Source: Mytilus trossulus
Taxonomy: Eukaryota
Reading direction: 5' to 3'
Assembly (NCBI RefSeq): GCF_036588685.1
Contig: NC_086373.1
Span: forward strand, 29,078,001 to 29,142,000
DNA length: 64,000 nucleotides
Below the pieces are notes generated by a model. It had not been told where the DNA came from. It was given only the letters and a program-made list of their open reading frames with translations, and searched no databases. Positions 2,651 to 62,579 of the stretch are shown here, piece after piece. Position numbers and translations under genes: made by a program. Positions within the stretch are counted from its first letter, which is position 1. Each line of letters begins with the position of its first letter.

Positions 2651-4567
2651 GGCAAAATAAAACCTAAAGGGATCTTTATAATTTGAAACAACAAATTTTT
2701 ATTCTTTGACCTGAAACAAGAGCTCTCATCATGCTCTTATGTGTTAGTACTTTTAGCACACTTCAATGCATTACTATGAGAAAGTTATATTATTTCAACG
2801 TACATATATAGTTTTTTTTTTATTCTATTTGTATATGAAATGAAGTAATTGTTTTTTTCGCTTAAAATCGATTACTAGTTTCATAATTCATACGAGTAAA
2901 AAAAAAAACTTTTATGGATTATTCACCTGGTACCTTTTGATAGCTATAATGCGTGTGTTTTTTTTACCTATATGTTCTCCAATTCATCTGTATTGTAGTC
3001 CTTTAATGTAATGTTGTCATTTTAATGTTATATTTAGCATTGCCATAAAAGCGGGAGGTTTGACTATTCACAAAACCATGTTCAACCCACCATTTTTGTT
3101 CTTAAAATGTCCTCTACCAAGTAAAAAAAAAATTGCCATTGTTATATTATACTTCGTTCATATGTGTGTTACATTTTAGTGTTGTGCCTCTGTTGTGTCG
3201 TTGAAACACTTGCTTAGGACCACTTATTTACCACGGCTTGTTTAGATAATGAAAAACATAATGCAAAATTATCAATGTTGATTGATTGATTGACTGAGCG
3301 GTGTTTCATTCCACTCTTAGCATATTATTGCGGTTGTTTTGTTGCGGTCAGTTTTTATTTGTGGAAGAAGCCAGAGTGCACACAGAGAACAACTCATCAT
3401 CAGCAGGGAAAATAACCATTCTAGTTAATTAAACCCATGTGCATGGTTCGAACGCTCAGCTTAAGTGTTGACATGCTAATGAATCAGTAGTTGAACTACT
3501 CTACCACTCGGTCAAACATCAGTTGTGATTTTATATTTGTTTAGTTACTTTATATAAGGTTATACTTTTCACTTTTGATTCTATTTTCATATATATTGTG
3601 CTTTAATCCTTGAGTAAATAGTGTACCTGTATTGTTTGCTGGTATGAAGCCTTTGTAATTCATATTGCAATATCATATCCGTTCTTCTTCTCTTTTTTTT
3701 GCCTTATATAAGTTTTTTTCAAACAATGTTTTGTTCTGAAAACTAATGAAGAATCCAAAAGAATAACGAAAGTTTTAACATTGCAAGTGGTCACGTGCCA
3801 ATAGCTTATCTTTGTTTATTCAAACACTTGTTTTAACAAAATTAACTCTGGCAAACAAAAGCATTTACATTGTACAATATGTCCATTTTAAAGAAGTGCA
3901 GAAGAATTAAGATTCATAAGATTATCGGTACCCATATGAAACACTAGATGATCTTTTTCGACAATTAGATTTACCCCAGTGATGACCAATAATTAAAAAA
4001 AACCAGTAGTTTACCGCTGTTGAAAATTCACAGATAGATTGAGTGAAAATAAATCCGGGTTAAAAACTAAAACCGAGGGATACACATCAACTATAATTTG
4101 GAAAATAGACAAACAACAGAAACATTAACATGCAACAAAAAATCAAACGATAACTCACCAAGAATCGAAAGTTATAAGATAACAACTGTGATTTTCCTGT
4201 CTTGGTACTGGACATTTATATGAAAAAAAGGTGAGTTGAACCTGGTGTTTTGGTTAGGCAAACCTCGCGCTTTTATGGCAATATTAAATAAACCACTAAA
4301 ATGATTACATTACATAAAATATATGAAAACAAAAACAAATGTTATAGAAATTCGAAGAGCCGATTTAACCAAAATCACCTAAAGTGTAGCCAAATTCTAA
4401 CAAGGAATACGAATTTTGTATTAGGAAGAAAATAACTATCTTTACATTAATAGATTTTAAGTGTTTTTCTTTGGTTTGTGTGTTCTGTATACGTCTGTGT
4501 TGCTTCATTTGTTTTCACCTTTCTTTAGTTAGTTATCACTACAACTAATAACGACTGTTTATTTCAG

Positions 4568-36531: not shown

Positions 36532-36567
36532 GCATCACTGAAGAGACATGTATTGTCGAAATGCGCA
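36532..36567 (+). ncRNA. Hammerhead ribozyme, family B, 5' part (split by L2; remainder at 39851-39858)
   Basis: GCAUCA-CUGAAGA-GACA(UGUAU)UGUC-GAAA-UGCGCA, then LINE sequence. UC-UGGUGC resumes after the LINE tail. Confidence 0.85.
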
Positions 36568-36702
36568 ATAAGGACCAATCTATGTTTAGTGAATGAATCG
36601 TCTGCCTATGAAAATGAGGAATTTAAATACGATTTAAAATTCAAAGGCCAACCACTCACCTTCTTTACACCTGCATCTGTATAGGAAATACGTAAAATTA
36701 TT

Positions 36703-38234
36703 TTGAAAGCTCCAACCAAATCATGCGAGTTAGACCCTCTTCCGACAAATATACTAAAACCGTGTCTAAATAGTTTAGCTACCGTCATCACCAAGATAGT
36801 GAACTTGTCACTGGAACAGTGTTGTGTACCATCATCTTTGAAGGAGGCAGTTGTCCGACCACACTTGAAAAAAGTTGGTCTAGACAAAGAGATATTGAAA
36901 AATTATAGACCAGTCTCTAATCTTCCGTTTGTATCTAAAGTGGTCGAAAAAGTCGTCGAAACTCGCCTTGAAAACCATCATACGTCAAACTCTCTTCACG
37001 ACAATGTACAATCAGCTTACCGTGCGTGTCATTCGACCGAGACAGCATTGTTTCGTGTGCATCATGACATCACTGTCGCACTTGATAACGACTGCTGTGC
37101 CGTTTTACTCATGCTAGACCTATCGGCTGCTTTCGATGTTATCGATCATCCTATTCTCATAAAGCGGATGGAATACTCTTGTGGGATAACCGGTACAGCA
37201 CTCAGTTGGTTGAAGTCATATCTCGAGATGAGGACTCAGCGAATCGCCATTGGTTCTGTTCTTTCTGATGAGATTCGTCTCCTATTTGGTGTTCCTCAAG
37301 GATCGGTCTTGGGACCAAAACTTTATTGTATTTTCGCAAGACCAATTGGCGAAATATGTAAACGACATAATATGTGCTATCACTGTTATGCAGACGACAC
37401 ACAAGTTTATCTCGTCTTTAAACCACTTGATAATTGGACAACTATATCTAAGCGACTCGAGGCTTGCGTTGCTGACATCAGCAAGTGGATGTGCTCGAAT
37501 CTGTTAAAATTGAACGAGGACAAAACGGAGCTGATAGTGTTTGCTCCAAAAAAACGAGTGAAGAACCTCTCAGACTTGCATCTTAATTTTGGTGGAAACG
37601 TTGTCAGTGATACTGAGTGCGTAAAAAACCTAGGCATTTATTTCGAGAAATCTTTGGCAATGGACAAACAAATTAGCGCTGTTTCAAAATCATGTTTTCA
37701 TCAGATAAGAAACATTGGACGAATTCGTCCTTTTATTACCGAAGAAGCATGCAAAACATTAGTATGCTCCCTTGTAACCTCTCGTTTGGATTATGGGAAC
37801 GCATTGCTGTATGGACTTCCATCAACTACTATTCAAAGATTACAGCGAGTACAAAACACTGCAGCCAGGGTCATTACAAGGAGGAGGAAATACGACCACA
37901 TAACGCCAATCCTAAAGTGTCTACATTGGCTCCCCGTAACATACAGATGCCAATATAAACTCCTCGTCTATGTGTTCAAGGCTTTGCACGAGGAGGCACC
38001 GGTCTACCTACAAGAACTCGTTAATATATATAAACCAATGCGAACACTCAGATCAGAAAATGCCATGATATTATAAACACCACGTGTGAGAACAAAAACA
38101 TATGGGGAGAGGAGATTCGACAAGCAGCATCCGTTTTATGGAACGATTTACCATGTGATATCCGGAACATCCATTCTGTGAACGCTTTTAAGAAACACCT
38201 GAAAACTCATTTATTCAGACATGCTTTTTCATAG
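36703..38234 (+). pseudogene. L2 ORF2 reverse transcriptase, disrupted
   Basis: 457-aa open segment 36703-38076. There is an in-frame TAG just upstream, a TAA at 38074-38076 and a frameshift near 38125 before the natural stop at 38232-38234. Confidence 0.9.
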
Positions 38235-53732: not shown

Positions 53733-54148
53733 TTGTATCTTAAATTTTTCTTTGAATTAACCCTTTTTCACAGGAAACCATTTTTTTTTCAAATCGAAAG
53801 AGAGCTTTCTTCTGATAATCCCAATATTGCGTAAAATCACATGGGGCAGTTCTGAATTCCATCACAATAACCGTTGGCTGATCAATAAATTTTCTCTAAG
53901 GGGTCCACTGACTGCCTAAGAGGGGCCCGTTCCAGTCATGCTGCAGTGAATCACTATATAACCAAACATTTGTTTCCACAAAAAGGGGGAGGGGGCTACA
54001 AAAACATGTGAATCCGCCTCTGCATGATTACTTTTTTTGTGAAGCATATAAATAAAGGCAACAGTAGTATACCGCTGTTCGAAACTAATAAATCGATAGA
54101 AAAAAAAATCCGGGTTACGAACTAAAACTGAGGGAAACGCATTAAATA

Positions 54149-55200
54149 TGGAGAACTCTAAAGTGCGATTGTACTCTAAGTGCGATGGTCACGCTAAAGT
54201 GCGATGGTCTACGCAAAGTACGATGATGTCTCACGCTAAAGTGCGATGGTTGTTTTTTCGCTAAAGTGCGATGGTTGTTTGTTCCCTAAAGAACGATGAT
54301 ATTTCGCGCTAAAGTGCGATGGACCAAAGGGTAAGAATCGAGGGCTTTATAATGAATGCTTAATTAAATGTTAAGAAACACTCAATGCAACAATAGTCCT
54401 TTTGTATAATCTAGTATTATAAGGTGTATACCATAGAAAGGTAGTATAATTTAACAGTATGTTAAGTGAATTATTCTTAAGACCGTTATAATTACTAAAA
54501 CGGAAATTAAGGTGTCACAGGATACTATATATTTCTTGTAAATGAATTTTTGACAACTCGTGCGTATTAAATATAATTGGTGAAGCTTGCCGTACACAAT
54601 CTATCGCGTATGGGAACTACACATTCATGTTATATTTTCCGGCAATGTACAAACTATTGTTTTAGCCGATAGTTTATAAATTACGCATGCAAATATGTAC
54701 CTGTATATTGCACACGTTACTTTTCAATAAAAGTGACATTTTAATGGGAACCGCAAAATGAACTACAACATAAACATGATAAATTATGATTCAAATTCAT
54801 CTATTTGCTTCCAATAAAAGCAGGATACAGGATATATTTGTGAATACTACTCGTATGTTTAGGGCCTAAAGTAAAAAGGGTCGACTGCAGGATACAAGTT
54901 ATTCTTACAGCTACCAAAATAAAACACCTTTGCTTTAAGTTTTAAATAAATTAAGTCATTGTCATTTGGTTTAAATTTCTTAATCAAATATTTGTAATTT
55001 GACTACCGGCGTGATTATTTTTAGTTTTTATAAACATTGATAAACGACTGATAACGTTATAATCCAAATACATTTATAACGTCTATACTTTCGCAGACCA
55101 TTGGACTTTAGCGTATGGGAACATCGCATTTTATGGTAAACCATCGCACTTTAGCGTGACATCGTACTTTAGCGTCCCCATCGCACTTTAGAGTCCTACA
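54149..55200. mobile_element. Non-autonomous TIR element (Ginger-like) with taaagtgcgatgg subterminal repeats
   Basis: tggagaactctaaagtgcgat / atcgcactttagagtcctaca termini with a 4-bp TSD AATA. It splits a host repeat. Confidence 0.8.
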
Positions 55201-55699
55201 AATATAAAAGATGAACAACGACACAACAATAAAATGTAAAACGAACTAAGCCTTAGACAAAATCCGATGAGATTAACAAATATAACATCAAAACTAAATA
55301 CATGAATATGGGATAGAAAAGTACCGTGAAACGTCTTATAGTGATGTGAATTCCCACTCAAATATTAGAGGAAACCAATGACACAACAGAAATACAACGT
55401 TAAAATGTAACGAACACAGAAACGAACTGACATGTTCCTGACTTGGTATAGGACATTTTTTAAAGAAAAAAATGATTGTTTGAACCTGGTTTTGTGGCAT
55501 GCCAAGCCTCCCGCTTTAATGGCAATGTTAAATATAACTGTTGTGAACTTACCTATTTATAAAACAAACGGGTCCGAGTGGGCAAAATCTTACATGGGGT
55601 TCACAAAAATATATATACCCCGGCAGTTTCCTGAATATATACTGACAACTCTGTGTTGTTATCCAATCACAAACCTAGACACATTTGTAATCCGTAATA

Positions 55700-56301
55700 T
55701 ATATATATATATATATAAACGAGGCTTAATTGAAAACTAAGTTCAAACCTACGATTGCGTCGGATAAAAACCGCAATTTTTATACTTGTGCATGTAAACC
55801 AAATTTCGTTGTAGAAGGGTCTAAAAACAGCACAAACAACATTTTCCAAAAGACCAAAAAAGTGAAAAAGTATATTTAAACAAAACGCATTTGACTAACA
55901 GGTCGAACAACTGATGTTCTTTAACCCTGCTGACTGCCATTGGCGATTGCCAAAAAAATTGATCACAAGATGTAACAAAATGGATCTTAATATAAATTTA
56001 ATACCAAACAGAAAAATAATAACTTGTGGCCACGATGTTATGCCACAAACATACGGTGACAATATTTTTTTACTACACCAGATCCGGATTTCGACAATGA
56101 ATGTCTCTTCAGTGATGTTAGGGATCAAAACGGTATTTGGAAGGCCATATAAAAAGTACCCTCATTTTTAGATAAAACTCTTGAATTTTAAGAGTCAATA
56201 TAGGATGAACGGATCATATAAACCGGAGGGAATATATGATACAAGCCCAAACGAAAATATATCAACGAGTCTAAATTGAAAACTACGTTCAAACCTACGA
56301 T
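55700..56301 (-). mobile_element. Retrozyme-like unit (family C), ~546 nt period
   Basis: Direct repeat aattgaaaacta(a/c)gttcaaacctacgat at ~55728 and ~56275, flanking the HHR at 56075. A related HHR-less copy lies at ~15680-15960. Confidence 0.7.
56075..56118 (-). ncRNA. Type I hammerhead ribozyme, intact (family C)
   Basis: Minus strand ACAUCA-CUGAAGA-GACA(UUCAU)UGUC-GAAA-UCCGGA-UC/UGGUGU, with all stems paired. Confidence 0.9.
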
Positions 56302-56302
56302 A

Positions 56303-56507
56303 TATATATTAATGAAATAAAATAGTAAAATAAGTTAAAAGTTTTACAGTTCCATTCAATCGATCTCATCCTTCCATTGGGACTCTTCGGGATAACTGAT
56401 ATGGTGCGTTATCAGTTATCCTGAAGAGTCCCAATGGAAGGATGAAATCGATTGAATGGAACTGTTAACTTTTAACTTATTTTACTATTTTATTTTATTA
56501 ATATATA
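56303..56507. repeat. Near-perfect ~100-bp-arm inverted repeat with an 8-nt spacer
   Basis: Arms 56303-56401 and 56410-56507 differ at only a few positions. Confidence 0.95.
56413..56464 (+). ncRNA. Hammerhead ribozyme (family D) in the right arm of a long palindrome
   Basis: CAGUUAUC-CUGAAGA-GUCC(CAAUGGAA)GGAU-GAAA-UCGA-UU/GAAUGGAACUG. Stem I is bulged (CAGUU/AACUG) and stem III is the palindrome AUCGAU. Confidence 0.7.
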
Positions 56508-59500
56508 CATCTGCACATGTGAAATTTATTTTTTACGCCTATATATATAGAGAGAGAGATTTAGTGGCAATAAGAAAACACAATAAACGTTATTAAAATA
56601 TGATACGATACTCGAATACATATTTTTTTAGATACTAAGGACCATTAAAAAAAAGAAAAACGTAACTTCAAATATGGAACCCTTATAATGTACACGTACA
56701 GTTGGAAAGCAGGTCACGGTTTGACCCCAAGTTTATCAGCAACAATAGAGTCACGTGACCGTGAAAATGCAGTAAAAAAAAGGACGAGACAAACCTCATT
56801 TTTACTCTCTATATACTATTGTCGTAATAATAACTTATTGACCTAAATAATCTTGAGTATCCATAGTTTATTCTCGTCAAAGCTCACACATCAAATAAAA
56901 GTCCTTTATTCTTTATTTTATCTGCAAACTTGGAGTTTGGGCGAAAATTGTCAAGTCTCCTGATCGAAACATCTATATATTTACGAGGAAACTAAAAATG
57001 ATGGGCTGAATTTAAATTTAATAAACCATCTCATTAAGACCAACACTCGATATGAATATCTCGGCAATAGAATGTTGGATACGCAAACGTCAAATTGATT
57101 TCAAAACGAAGCGGTGGTTTTGATGCCGATTTGTGCAAGTTGTTATCTCCCCTTAATATCACCTGTCAAAAATAAAAACCCAGCAAAATGCACAAAAAAT
57201 TAGAAAGACAATAAACGAAACTCGATATATAACTATGTTATGATAATATAAAGAAAAGATACTTCCCTATTTTTCAGAGAAGGACTAAATATATAAAATT
57301 AAAAGACAAAATATAAGTAAAAAAAAACCAATTCAGAAATGTGGATCATGACACCTACATGTAAAACTAAAAACCTAGCTATATTGAAAGAAATTAGATC
57401 TGGTGGATGAAATATACTACATGTAATTTTTATATTTGGGATCATTCCTAGCAGAATTTTTTTTAACACTTCTGATAATATTTAATGCAATAAAACATAG
57501 TTTATACAATTTGAATAATCTTTCTGAAAATTGATATAATTACCAGATACATGTAAATAGTACTGATCATATATATTTTATATTCTATAAAGTGTGACGA
57601 AGAGTCACAACAAATTTCTTCAAATAAGAGAGCCTTTTAACCTTAGCCTATGTTTCTTTATAGTTGAACAGTAAAATACAGAAAAGGGATTTATTAGTTT
57701 TATACCTAAAATATTGACAGAAATTCAGTACAAAAAATATGCTTTAAATTATAAGTTAAACTCATACAATTTTGAATTTCAGAATCATTATTATTGTAAA
57801 ATTAAACTACTAGATTAGCTTGTACTGTAGCCCTTTGTCTTATTTCTCAGGGTATTTTATAGATTGTGAAAGTAAACTTTTTTGGAAAAATGGGGCTTCT
57901 TTGAACCTTGAACAGGTTGCTATATCAGCTGCTTTAAAGTATTGCATATATTCTTTACCTGAATACTAGTAATAGGAAATGAAATGAAACTGGTGGGACA
58001 AATTGTGTGCATTTTACTTCAATAATGATCAATGATGCTCAAATTTGACAAGAATTTGCCATTGGAATAAATTCAATTTTGTAAGAACACATCTCTATGA
58101 ATTTACTTCTTGTTTGGCTGACTTGGCTTGATAAGCTAGTTTTTGCTCTTATCAATATAGCTTACTAAGTAAAGAGAAAATAACATAAGCAAGATTGTAT
58201 TAACTGACCTTCATTTCCTTTTTTCATATGTTTTTTTCCTACAGAATTTTCTTTGCAATGCATTTTCTTTTGCTATTTTTGTGCTTTTGTCCATCCATAC
58301 AGTAGGCTATCAATAATTTGTCAGATCTGTCAGAATTTTCCAAGACGTTTAACTTTAGCTTTAAACGCAATAAAGAAGATCTTTGTTTGTTGTTTCACTT
58401 TTCCAATGTGTAAATTTTTACTATGCACATGACCCTGACACATATTTTGTTGTAAACGTTACATGACGTATGTTGAAAAAAGAAAACAATGTCACCGTCA
58501 ATTTGTGTAGGGGATCAACAGGGGGTTTTGTTGCTTTAAAATACAAGTATCGTATTCAATAGTGAAAATCCACAACTTTTAATCAAAATTTCATTCATGT
58601 CTTTATTAAAATCAGTATTTTAGAGAACTTTGAAATAGGAACAATGATAAGAAGCTAAACTTCACTGTTTTGAAGTAGAAACGTAGCTAAAACCAGATAC
58701 AAATTGGCATGGCTGGTGGTCACTCAAATTGATGTATAAAAGTAAAAAATAATGGCTTCAAAAAAGTGTAAAAATTTGAAATAGGTTTCCCGGTTTCATT
58801 TAAGATTATTACCGTTCTTTTCTGTATTTGGATACGCAAACGTCAAATTAGGAAAAATCGATTTTTTTGAAGAAAAAAAAGATGGCTATTTTTTTAGATA
58901 GGACAGGATAAAGGAATAGCATTAACAAGCTATTTTTTGTAATGTTTGTATGCCGTAAATAAATTATATTGGTCACAAAACCTACAAATTTTTAAATTTA
59001 ATTATAATTAAAGCATGACAAGTTGCAAAAAATACTTTAAACGTCAATCTTTTAGCCGATTGATTTGGCGAACTTTTTGACGTTACGGACGACTGTAGCG
59101 CCACCTAATTAATCCCCCCTGCTATTGTTGCTGCTAGAGCTTGACGACAACGGCCGTATCGAAGGACTTGCTTTCCAACTGGTAGGCGCGAAGAAATGAA
59201 ATTGTATGCATACCAATTTAATTTGAATAGATTAAATCATGATTGCTATCATGCTAATGCATAATTGTATATGATTCAACTTATGTTTTAACACTAAAAT
59301 CGACATTTTTCATTGAAAATAAAATTTAGGCAAAGGTGAGTCGAAATAATTTAATGGTTCATTTCAGTTCGTAGTACAGTTGGAACAGTATCAAATATAG
59401 AAGGCGCTCATTGATTTTCAGTCAGTTCTACCATTCACATTAACATGGGGTTTCAAACGGTATGCTATGAAAGAGTGCAATGTTGTTTTTATACTTGACT

Positions 59501-59598: not shown

Positions 59599-59685
59599 AT
59601 GAAAAAAACTAGAAAAGTGTCCTCATTATGCCTTTTTCTTATTTTTGTTATTTTACACATGGTTTGCAAAAGAAACTACGTTAAG
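59599..59685 (+). CDS. First coding exon of GT92 gene B (type II membrane signal anchor)
   Basis: ATG at 59599 gives MKKTRKVSSLCLFLIFVILHMVCKRNYVK (basic tail plus hydrophobic stretch). Ends AAG|gtaagt, phase 0. Confidence 0.7.
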
Positions 59686-60130
59686 GTAAGTCTTTAGTCT
59701 ACCTACTCAGTTCTCGCATCCACACATAAACACACATACATTTATTTTACATATTTATGCAACGATATTATATATAGTATCTGCCGAAGTTTGATAGTTA
59801 TCTCTGTGTACTCCACCAATTATGGCCGCAATGAAAAAGTCGAAGGAGCAGAAAGTGGTTTTAGAAACTAACAATTAATGAATATTTGATAGTTATTATG
59901 GACATAACGAAACTGAACGTGGCATTATGGGCGTAAGTGTATGAATTATTGAAAGTCACACATATTTAGTATCATCAACAAACGGTAGAAGAAAAACGTT
60001 TTTCATACACATCATTCAATTGCAAAATGGATCAGTGTGAACATCATAAATATCACAAAACCTAACACAAATTGCACAGAAAAATAATACAATTGAAATT
60101 GCTACCTAACAGTATTTTGTATCATTTCAG

Positions 60131-60699
60131 AATATAGAATCCTGTTATGAAACTGTACATGTATTCTCTGCAGTAGCACAAGCAAAGACAAAATGGAGTT
60201 TTATAGAGAGTATTGTTCTTGATGTTCTGGATGGATCTAAACATTCTTATTGCGACTGTTGTATAAATGGGTACCAGGGAACACCTATTTATCGTATAAA
60301 TGCTGTTGTGAAGGAGACCTATAATCATAACAGTGAATTCACTGACTTAATAGCAAGACAGTTCAAGTGCTCTGTAAAAAATATTGGTTTTAGGATGGTA
60401 AATATACACTTAATTGGAAAAATTGAATCGTGTAGTATTTCGTATAATCTTCATCCTGTTTTATACCCAGAGATAAAAGAAAACGGATTCGGAATATGTG
60501 CAAAAATAGCCTACAATTATCTTAACCCATTGCACCTTATTGAGTGGTTTGAATATCAGAAAATGATGGGTGTAGACATGGTTTTTATATCTGTACAATC
60601 CTTAAATAAAGACGCTAATAAAGTTTTGAGACATTACGAAAGAGAAGGGATTACAACACTGATTTCTTTTCTAAATAACATGCCCGGGAAATTAGATAT
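60131..60699 (+). CDS. Large internal exon of GT92 gene B
   Basis: atttcag acceptor, phase 0. Open frame NIESCYETVHVFSAV...FGICAKIAYNYLNPLHLIEWFEYQKMMGVDMV...VLRHYEREG, matching the GT92 'C......iEW.Ey..l.Gv' block. The 3' boundary is uncertain (60695 or 60699). Confidence 0.85.
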
Positions 60700-62017
60700 G
60701 TACTTGGAAAATATTTAAAAAACTACAATACTTTATTCAATTTGATAATAACTTTAAATAAGTTTTTGTCTCCTCAGAAATATTATATAACGTACCTATC
60801 TGGATTTACATAACAGATGAAAGATAATTACATGCCATACGAAAATCACACAAAGAATATTTGTGTGTACTGCACTAGAAAATTTCCAATAAAAGAGGGA
60901 CAGGGATGTTCAAATTCATAAGTCGAAAAATTTTAACAACGCAATAGAAAGTAGACATTGCAAATGACGCAGACAAATAACATAAGATAAAACAAAACAA
61001 AATAAAAGACCAAGCAGCACATTCCTAAATAAGAAAAGAAAGTCGATAAAATATGGCTAATATCAGCTAAAAAGCAATTAATCTGTAAGATCATTTAAAC
61101 TACCCCAAAAACTCTTAAATACAATAGACAAAGAATTAAGTGTTTATTATGTATAGTTTTTGCAATAATCATAAAGTGTCGACAAAAATCGATAAAAAAT
61201 GACGTCCATAATATGAAGCACCAGTCCCACTAGACCACAATCGCACCAAGTTCATCGTGATCCAAAACAAATTTAGATCGTGGCGAGGTTGCTGTATGAG
61301 CGGCATGCAAATGCTAATTTTCGTTTCTTTCATGTTGCTTCTGCGTCCTCATTACGCTTCAACAACGATAACTCTACGATTATACCAAGTTCTCGACACG
61401 GTTATTCTACGACTTCACTACGATTATCACGATCTTTCTAAGCTCATCACGTCTTCACTTCAACCATACAACGATTTAACCGATTGCAACACGATCTTAC
61501 CACGCATCCACTACGATTTTGTTACGCTCTTAACACGACCATACTACGATCATACCACGTTCATACCGCGATCTTACTACACTCCAATCGAGTTCCATAT
61601 AAATACTGTATAATTCCTTCTATTGCTAATTGATATTAAAGTAGAGTTTCTCGGACACAACGCAGTCATGTAATCAAAATCTACGTTGTGTCTTGTGTAC
61701 TATCATTTGTCTGTTTGTCTCTTTCATGTTTCGTTATGGCGTTGTCAATGTTGTCGTTGCACAAATAAGTGAGCATAATTTGAAAATGAGATGTGGTATG
61801 ATTTCCACTAGATACAAACTGACTTGGAGGTTTAAAACTACAAAATGTAAAGGTCTGCATACGGACTTCGACAATGAGAAAAAAAAACAATACCAAACAG
61901 TCGGCTATAAATGGTCCCGAAATGACATAATTTAAACAACCCAAAATGAGAAAACTAAAACGTATATTCTTTTAATGCACAGTTCCAAAACTAAAATTAT
62001 GAAACTGTATAATAAAT

Positions 62018-62158
62018 TAAATAACACATATATAGGAGGGTGATAGAGCAGATTGTTACCCCTCGAAAAAGCATTGCCAATATTGGCTTCTCCGCGGTTG
62101 ACAATGTTTTTTCGGGGTAACAATCTGCTCTATCAGCCTCTCAGCTATGTGTTATTTA
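62018..62158. mobile_element. Short palindromic MITE in a GT92 gene B intron
   Basis: taaataacacata..tgatagagcagattgttacccc / ggggtaacaatctgctctatca..tatgtgttattta. Confidence 0.75.
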
Positions 62159-62409
62159 TATTCTAGTATACACATTATTTTGAGGTCACCCCTATAGCGT
62201 AGTATTTAAATTGTAGTCGTTCTCGTACTCGGAGTCAGGTAGTTATTGTAAATCTCTATCAACCACTTGATGTTATAAATTAACAAGCCTTTTAAATCCT
62301 TAATTTATGTACTAGTACTGTAAAAGTGTCAAAATAGCATGGAAAACATGTTTATCTACTGTAAAGTGAACATACTTTTTCATCAATTGTTCTTTTTTTT
62401 TTGTTTTAG

Positions 62410-62579
62410 ATAGAGGATTTACATTACAACAATGGCATTACCACCAAAGTTCCCATGATGAACAGGTGGCTGTTTACTCATGTAAAGAATTTTTTCAAGG
62501 ATTCGCTTTTGTGGCGATCATAGATTTTGACGAAATCATCGTTCACGATACATTTTCAAAATACACACAAATACAAATG
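62410..62579 (+). CDS. DxD-motif exon of GT92 gene B
   Basis: Polypyrimidine tract plus ttag acceptor. Reads RGFTLQQWHYHQSSHDEQVAVYSCKEFFQGFAFVAIIDFDEIIVH...QIQM|gtaact, with a GT-A DFDE motif. The acceptor could be 62409 or 62413. Confidence 0.85.

What the first reader, a model, noticed from the sequence alone, without database searches (positions are those of the whole stretch)
56303..56507. Long palindrome with one intact and one core-mutated hammerhead on opposite strands
Seen: ~100 bp arms. The right arm encodes CUGAAGA..GAAA on the + strand. The left arm, read on the - strand, has CCGAAGA..GAGA, so two of the few arm differences hit catalytic core positions. It abuts the family C retrozyme, whose own HHR is ~300 bp away. 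Known: Penelope-like elements often leave inverted pLTR duplications and their pLTRs carry HHRs. Inference: an inverted pLTR relic of another family. A read-through transcript would form a long hairpin that sequesters the ribozyme and could be a Dicer/ADAR substrate.
Basis: partly seen in the sequence, partly recalled or inferred. Interest (0 to 1): 0.7.

Follow-up and report, generated by a model that had tools for sequence, protein, structure and literature searches.

The report
Head-to-head Penelope retrotransposon stub in mussel
This DNA palindrome is a short, broken-off, head-to-head insertion of a Penelope-type jumping gene, one of dozens in this genome; its two ribozyme mutations are likely ordinary decay, and the lopsided ends of the copies suggest the element is likely copied from both sides of the cut DNA at once.

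Summary
The palindrome is real (z -29). It is the clipped 3' end (pLTR, with a minimal hammerhead) of an endonuclease-bearing, Neptune-like Penelope element, inserted head-to-head in a (TA)n tract; a near-complete RT/GIY-YIG copy lies elsewhere in the genome. The right arm keeps a 32-nt tail (56508-56539); the left arm lacks it. This layout is published (PMC8557442, PMC3846280). The core mutations are unremarkable: of 28 pairs, 16 have two intact cores, 11 one, 1 none, as independent decay predicts. No RNA read covered the left arm or the unique flank (other individuals). The useful part is the census: 43 of 45 intact head-to-head insertions have exactly one tailed and one tail-less arm, either arm can reach further 5' (17 vs 11), and four junctions have no loop. 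This fits one RNA primed twice, from both target strands at two UA tracts, better than snap-back (inferred). I found no paper stating this, but the scan has reported the same reading in at least 11 other genomes. Known kind; low-to-moderate interest.

The parts
56300..56412 (-). Tail-less arm: inverted copy of the element's 3' end, ending outward at the internal TATATA, which runs into target (TA)n at 56300-56310
56347..56398 (-). Hammerhead motif of the left arm, with U4C (56389) and A14G (56365); predicted inactive
   Evidence: A14G abolishes cleavage (PMC4889925); U4C lowers it (PMC3088659)
56402..56412 (.). Head-to-head junction with a 3-nt overlap (56410-56412); the left arm reaches about 12 nt further 5' in the element than the right arm
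   Evidence: inner ends at reference 3536 vs 3548
56410..56539 (+). Tail-bearing arm: 5'-truncated pLTR of a Neptune-like Penelope element (subfamily B)
   Evidence: 96% identical to the 3' end of the ORF-bearing copy L032
56413..56464 (+). Minimal type I hammerhead motif: intact core, 4-bp stem II, palindromic 6-nt helix III region, predicted cut after 56453 (U17), interrupted helix I
   Evidence: position and fold shared by sister families with compensatory changes
56508..56539 (+). 32-nt PLE tail, present on this arm only
   Evidence: compare PMC8557442 and PMC11167929
56540..56549 (.). (TA)n target, right side
55707..56301 (-). Neighbouring family C retrozyme (546-bp unit plus 45 bp; hammerhead 56076-56117). 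A separate element that shares the (TA)n target
   Evidence: family RNA abundant, with 546-back joints

Best explanation
The palindrome is a dead, 5'-truncated, head-to-head insertion of the 3' end of a Penelope-like retrotransposon with a C-terminal GIY-YIG endonuclease, likely made by twin priming on one RNA. Shown: family identity, (TA)n target, one tailed and one tail-less arm, and arms of the same subfamily. Inferred steps: (1) the endonuclease nicks both strands of a (TA)n tract; (2) each TA-ending 3'-OH pairs with one of two UA tracts about 30 nt apart in the tandem RNA, one before and one after the tail; (3) both cDNAs copy the same upstream pLTR, the distal one displacing the proximal one; (4) both stop early and their 3' ends are joined by microhomology or end joining. 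The hammerhead came along as part of the pLTR, and U4C and A14G likely arose later as neutral decay. I put family identity at about 0.97 and twin priming at about 0.65.
For: Family: L032 has an inverted tail-less arm, then pLTR, ORF1, a 746-aa ORF (RVT_1 E 6e-8, DKG motif, CX4CxxC linker, LIY-CxxC-YIG), pLTR and (TA)n; relatives carry PF01541. End rule: 61 head-to-head versus 5 tail-to-tail junctions in 107 blocks. Of the 45 with both outer ends intact, 43 are tail + tail-less, 2 tail + tail and 0 tail-less + tail-less (P 3e-11 against independent choice; 16 junctions with a truncated end left out). Of 28 pairs whose inner ends differ by 15 nt or more, the tail-less arm is longer in 17 and the tailed arm in 11; snap-back of a tail-primed cDNA allows only the latter. 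Four junctions are loop-free palindromes centred on self-complementary words (L207, L232, L255, L257). Overlaps of 2 nt or more occur at 12 of 16 insert-free junctions against 17% by chance (15 junctions with inserted bases left out). Both arms are of one subfamily in 28 of 28 pairs, and the window's arms share two minor variants. In the two tandem copies seen (L032 and sister-family L162) the tail is followed by TATAT(A) inside the element. The two sister-family pairs that could be read show the same one-sided tail (L164, L170). In vitro, a PLE cuts and extends both strands and starts at two sites bounding the tail (PMC11167929).
Against: Later deletions at palindrome centres can shift inner ends and blur the length test. 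Two insertions have tails on both arms. BLAST overlaps can overstate microhomology. Shared variants cannot separate one RNA copied twice from fold-back or gene conversion, and 4 of the 7 sharing pairs share only a common variant. In PAc, priming is at sites not homologous to the cut DNA and start-site use does not differ between strands (PMC11167929). The core is mutated more often than the rest of the arm (27/943 vs 112/6797, P 0.012; P 0.26 without U4, which is hit in 8 of 84 copies), so decay is not perfectly uniform. The TATATA after the tail was seen in only one tandem copy of this family. The GIY-YIG Pfam hit (E 0.003) is below the curated cut-off.
Confidence: 0.68

Rival explanations
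1. Same element, but the inverted arm arises by self-priming (fold-back) on an antisense template or on the cDNA, and the endonuclease then resolves the hairpin at the internal TATATA, removing one tail.
For: Proposed in PMC3846280 (self-priming on an antisense template) and PMC8557442 (tail from EN-mediated resolution). It also explains same-subfamily arms and junction microhomology. The internal TATATA resembles the target.
Against: Sense-cDNA snap-back is excluded wherever the tail-less arm is longer (17 of 28). Four loop-free junctions are hard to prime intramolecularly. Family reads lay in one direction only (taken as sense under the usual stranded protocol). An antisense-RNA version is not fully excluded.
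Confidence: 0.22
2. A selected regulatory hairpin: read-through RNA sequesters the hammerhead and feeds Dicer or ADAR, and the left core was inactivated for that purpose.
For: A transcript across the locus would fold into a -146 kcal/mol hairpin. Both core changes are A-to-G on one strand or the other. A 5'-UTR intron of the GT92 gene is not excluded.
Against: The core-state split matches chance. No reads over the left arm or unique flank in 3 RNA runs. A>G is not the leading substitution in the family (5.2 per 1000, against 13 for G>A and C>T). The two changes lie on opposite strands, so one edited RNA cannot explain both.
Confidence: 0.04
3. A self-contained fold-back MITE-like family that moves as a unit.
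For: At least 13 other short palindromes of similar size exist. Three loci share one odd junction.
Against: Junctions differ between loci, and arm lengths run from about 40 nt to about 2.8 kb into the RT ORF. The ends are asymmetric, not terminal inverted repeats.
Confidence: 0.03
4. An assembly or library fold-back artefact.
For: No contig in four DNA runs spanned the junction (contigs break at repeats, so this is uninformative).
Against: The arms differ at 6 columns, the mirror stops at the element's end and does not continue into the flanks, the right flank is single-copy, and the same rule holds in 43 of 45 insertions.
Confidence: 0.02

Closest known systems
EN+ Penelope-like elements with an inverted 5'-truncated pLTR and a one-sided 30-40 bp tail (PMC8557442 Fig. 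2 legend; Adineta Pen2a_Av, PMC3846280; D. virilis Penelope, PMC2377424)
   Same: Head-to-head inverted copy, tail on one end only, partial tandem pLTR-ORF-pLTR in the full copy, hammerhead in the pLTR.
   Different: This copy is truncated inside the pLTR, so only the palindrome remains. No target-site duplication is readable because the target is (TA)n.
Neptune clade of PLEs (PMC8557442)
   Same: [quoted passage not shown]
   Different: No tree against named Neptune or Nematis references was built, and the linker is shared with Nematis. L032 has an upstream frame overlapping the RT frame. No Repbase name could be checked.
Poseidon PAc of Anolis (PMC11167929)
   Same: Two end points bounding the tail; both target strands cut and extended; hammerhead not needed for insertion (one palindrome here has the same core mutation in both arms, L003).
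   Different: In PAc the start sites are in an AC-rich stem-loop not homologous to the target. Here both end points are UA tracts that could pair with the (TA)n primer.
Minimal PLE hammerheads (PMC4209133)
   Same: Type I core, palindromic helix III needing a dimer. That paper already notes dual motifs 100-700 bp apart on opposite strands in Schistosoma.
   Different: Stem II is 4 bp, helix I is interrupted, and subfamily B has U at position 17.
L1 twin priming
   Same: Both target strands prime on one RNA, giving an inverted 5' segment joined by microhomology.
   Different: In L1 the two segments do not overlap. Here both primers start about 30 nt apart and duplicate the same sequence.

Membership tests
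EN+ Penelope-like element | RT domain with DKG motif in the parent element | tested here: met
   RVT_1 E 6e-8 above cut-off; DKG motif in the 746-aa ORF of L032
EN+ Penelope-like element | C-terminal GIY-YIG endonuclease with CCHH (two Cys between GIY and YIG) | tested here: met
   LIY-CxxC-YIG and downstream His residues by inspection; Pfam GIY-YIG E 0.003, below cut-off; many close relatives carry PF01541
EN+ Penelope-like element | Partial tandem forming pLTRs | tested here: met
   L032: pLTR at both ends of the ORFs
EN+ Penelope-like element | Inverted 5'-truncated copy and a 30-40 bp tail at one end | tested here: met
   32-nt tail; 43 of 45 intact head-to-head insertions
EN+ Penelope-like element | Hammerhead motif in the pLTR | tested here: met
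   Motif at 56421; two sister families have one 208-234 nt after the EN with changed stems, one with a U3-A8 core. None was found in several more distant relatives among the 20 loci.
EN+ Penelope-like element | Target-site duplication | tested here: inconclusive
   Both flanks are (TA)n; no empty allele was found
Neptune clade | CX2-5CxxC linker before the EN | tested here: met
   CX4CxxC; shared with Nematis per PMC8557442
Neptune clade | (TA)n insertion preference | tested here: met
   TA tracts at the outer ends of most copies listed
Neptune clade | RT phylogeny with named references | not tested
Monomeric active hammerhead | Stable helices I and III | tested here: not met
   Helix III is 1 bp plus a palindromic tetraloop; helix I is 2 bp, an internal loop, then 5 bp; the HHR-like fold is 4 kcal/mol above the MFE
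Monomeric active hammerhead | Self-cleavage | not testable with these tools
   No read-end peak at 56453, but depth was only 2-5
Non-LTR retrozyme | Head-to-tail tandem units each with a hammerhead | tested here: not met
   The two motifs are head-to-head on opposite strands
MITE / fold-back DNA element | Fixed-length copies with symmetric terminal repeats | tested here: not met
   Different junctions, graded lengths, asymmetric ends

The most novel reading that the evidence does not exclude
Neptune-type Penelope elements integrate by twin target priming on one RNA. Both nicked strands of a (TA)n tract base-pair to two UA tracts that bound the tail. That single step would explain the inverted pLTR, the one-sided tail and the microsatellite bias, and this mussel family gives a countable genomic record of it (43 of 45; either arm longer; loop-free junctions).
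Probability: 0.55. Interest if true: 0.5.

Novelty: new member of a known kind. Interest (0 to 1): 0.28.

Why it matters
The locus itself is an ordinary fossil. Its family bears on a question the field calls open: how PLEs make inverted pLTRs and a one-sided tail (PMC8557442). The end census favours two primers on one RNA and suggests a direct test, since both end points are UA tracts matching the target. The value is confirmatory. The scan has reached the twin-priming reading in at least 11 other genomes, and what this family adds is the (TA)n-targeting case with target-complementary start sites.

Tried and rejected
Rfam at gathering threshold: no hit in the window. Core-mutation enrichment in one arm: rejected. 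ADAR signature: A>G is not dominant. Two leads from earlier scan notes were tested on 84 arms picked by exact 3' motifs. Ends per nt at risk were 0.012 at the predicted cut (ref 3588-3596) and 0.011 near an initiator-like TCAGTT (ref 3545-3559; motif label recalled), against 0.005-0.008 in neighbouring bins. This is at most about twofold on 8 and 9 ends, so neither stopping at the ribozyme cut nor run-off at the RNA start is shown here. DNA contigs of four runs did not span the junction, which is uninformative; they do show A rather than T at 56453 in most family copies. The search for an empty allele through the right flank found only this locus. PDB sequence search with the EN: no hit. No earlier scan notes near this place. 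Pyatkov 2004 and Evgen'ev 1997 are not held; Arkhipova 2006 and Evgen'ev and Arkhipova 2005 were not seen. Any of these may already state a two-primer model. No supplements were read, and those of PMC4209133, PMC7229834 and PMC8557442 may list this family.

Full report
OBSERVATION. The arms 56299-56401 and 56410-56511 are 94% complementary and fold to -146.5 kcal/mol, z -29. The + strand has CUGAAGA at 56421, a 4-bp stem II, GAAA at 56444 and a predicted cut after 56453. The - strand copy has U4C and A14G. A14G abolishes hammerhead cleavage (PMC4889925, passages) and U4C lowers it in vitro (PMC3088659, passages). Rfam gave no hit. The genome has 1.3 Gb, and its proteins match Mytilus entries at 88-97%, so the host is inferred to be a Mytilus mussel.

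WHAT IT IS. The 221-bp stretch has 85 matches in the genome (40 of 209 candidates scored, a lower bound), including at least 13 other short palindromes. Longer copies run upstream into an RT frame. L032 shows the whole layout: an inverted tail-less arm, a partial pLTR, two upstream frames, a 746-aa frame, a pLTR with tail, and (TA)n. That frame has RVT_1 (E 6e-8), a DKG motif, a CX4CxxC linker and a GIY-YIG with two cysteines between the motifs (Pfam E 0.003, below cut-off; relatives carry PF01541). By the criteria in PMC8557442 (passages) this is a C-terminal EN+ PLE of Neptune or Nematis type, and the (TA)n target favours Neptune; no tree was built. The window's right arm is 96% identical to the 3' end of L032 and continues 32 nt past the mirror (56508-56539) into (TA)n; the left arm stops at the internal TATATA. 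An inverted 5'-truncated copy with a one-sided 30-40 bp tail is the published PLE layout (PMC8557442; PMC3846280, passages; PMC2377424, passages). Opposite-strand minimal hammerheads 100-700 bp apart were noted in PMC4209133 (parts 1-2 of 4).

THE RIBOZYME. Two sister families (61% ORF identity, and about 51-54%) carry a hammerhead 208-234 nt after the endonuclease, with different but paired stems, a palindromic helix III and the same tail layout; one has the U3-A8 core. Several more distant relatives among the 20 loci fetched showed no motif. The motif is therefore a real pLTR hammerhead by homology. It has a 1-bp helix III, an interrupted helix I and U17 in the window's subfamily, whereas most family copies in four DNA runs have A there. 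Single motifs of this type showed no cleavage in vitro (PMC4209133), and in PAc the hammerhead needs protein and is dispensable for insertion (PMC11167929, parts 1-2 of 4). The two motifs here are on opposite strands and cannot form the cis dimer.

ARE THE CORE MUTATIONS SPECIAL? I aligned 96 arms and dropped 7 (duplicates or misaligned). Of 85 covering the core, 62 are intact. Of 28 head-to-head pairs, 16 have two intact cores, 11 one and 1 none, against 14.9, 11.1 and 2.1 expected by chance (computed by hand). Two or more core hits among 5-6 differences has probability 0.09-0.125. Against pure neutrality, the core shows 27/943 substitutions versus 112/6797 elsewhere (P 0.012). This is driven by U4 (8 of 84; P 0.26 without it) and is unexplained. 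A>G is not the leading change.

IS IT TRANSCRIBED? In three raw RNA runs (other individuals, perhaps another species, about 6% of each read) depth over the right arm was 1.6-5.4 in one direction, zero over the left arm and zero over the unique flank 56606-56672. The neighbouring family C retrozyme reached hundreds, with 546-back joints; such retrozyme RNAs are described in Mytilus (PMC7229834, passages), and a preprint argues that animal retrozymes derive from PLE pLTRs (10.64898/2026.07.22.740005, part 1 of 5). Hairpins reverse-transcribe poorly and those animals may lack this insertion, so this is weak evidence. The nearest gene, a GT92, starts at 59599; a 5'-UTR intron is not excluded.

HOW IT FORMED. 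Of 110 merged blocks, 3 duplicates were dropped, and the other 107 held family hits, with 61 head-to-head and 5 tail-to-tail junctions. Sixteen junctions with a truncated outer end were set aside. Of the remaining 45, 43 have one tailed and one tail-less arm, 2 have two tails and none has no tail (P 3e-11 against independent choice). Among 28 pairs whose inner ends differ by 15 nt or more, the tail-less arm reaches further 5' in 17 and the tailed arm in 11 (an earlier, smaller census gave 31 of 33 and 13 vs 11). A tail-primed cDNA that folds back can only give the second pattern, and an internally primed one cannot regenerate the tail from sense RNA. Four junctions are loop-free palindromes centred on self-complementary words and one has a 1-nt loop, as expected if two equal 3' ends anneal. 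Overlaps of 2 nt or more occur at 12 of 16 insert-free junctions versus 17% by chance; 15 junctions with inserted bases were left out, and BLAST overlaps may overstate this. Both arms belong to one subfamily in 28 of 28 pairs. In L032 and in a sister-family tandem the tail is followed by a TA tract inside the element, so both end points are UA tracts. With the in vitro result that a PLE cuts and extends both strands and starts at the two sites bounding the tail (PMC11167929), the simplest model is one RNA primed from both target strands, one primer per UA tract. This is inference. Centre deletions can shift junctions, and antisense self-priming (PMC3846280) with endonuclease resolution (PMC8557442) is not fully excluded.

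PRIOR ART. Searches for Penelope with twin priming or both-end priming gave no paper that, by its listing, states this model (listings only). Key older papers were not available. I wrote the hypothesis down before reading the scan's notes. Those hold 23 findings with these words in at least 11 genomes, and the 8 shown all reach a twin-priming reading; they are not independent evidence. Two of their further claims, stopping at the ribozyme cut and run-off at the RNA start, were tested on 84 arms chosen by exact 3' motifs. They gave at most a twofold excess on 8 and 9 ends, which is not shown here.

VERDICT. Observation confirmed; Penelope reading supported; regulatory hairpin and meaningful core asymmetry not supported. 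New member of a known kind, interest 0.28.

Noticed in passing
family-wide, hammerhead position U4 (window 56422 / 56389): U4 is substituted in 8 of 84 copies (6 to C, 2 to A) in both subfamilies, against about 1.7% elsewhere. Unexplained hotspot.
   Followed up: partly
L161-L164, L179, L180: A sister PLE family (61% ORF identity) carries a hammerhead with the U3-A8 covaried core and A at position 7, plus the same tail layout.
   Followed up: partly
L032:3292-4550: Two upstream open frames (178 and 266 aa, RGG-rich end) overlap into the RT frame: a possible frameshifted ORF1 with no Pfam hit above cut-off. Its 5' part was found in only this copy.
   Followed up: no
window 55707-56301: Family C retrozyme RNA is abundant (depth in the hundreds, mostly one direction) with joints going back 546 nt, as expected of tandem or circular RNA. 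Family C ends abut many family D insertions through shared (TA)n.
   Followed up: partly
window 36538, 40172 (+); 6159, 10439 (-); 36685-38076: Four more hammerhead motifs, and a 463-aa RT ORF (RVT_1 E 6e-28) lying between the motifs at 36538 and 40172.
   Followed up: no
window 59599-62579 (+): Glycosyltransferase family 92 gene, 76-88% identical by exon to Mytilus proteins; first coding exon 3.1 kb downstream of the palindrome.
   Followed up: partly
L293, L295, L297: Three loci share one junction in which the tailed arm is only about 8 nt long, probably re-copied as a passenger.
   Followed up: no
L252: Four copies of one truncated arm in a local tail-to-tail amplified array.
   Followed up: no
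window 54140-55210: Imperfect inverted repeats built of short tandem subrepeats, about 1 kb apart: probably another transposon's ends.
   Followed up: no
P0014, P0019, P0085 and others: Close relatives of the PLE protein are filed under bacterial gill-symbiont names, probably host contamination of those assemblies.
   Followed up: no
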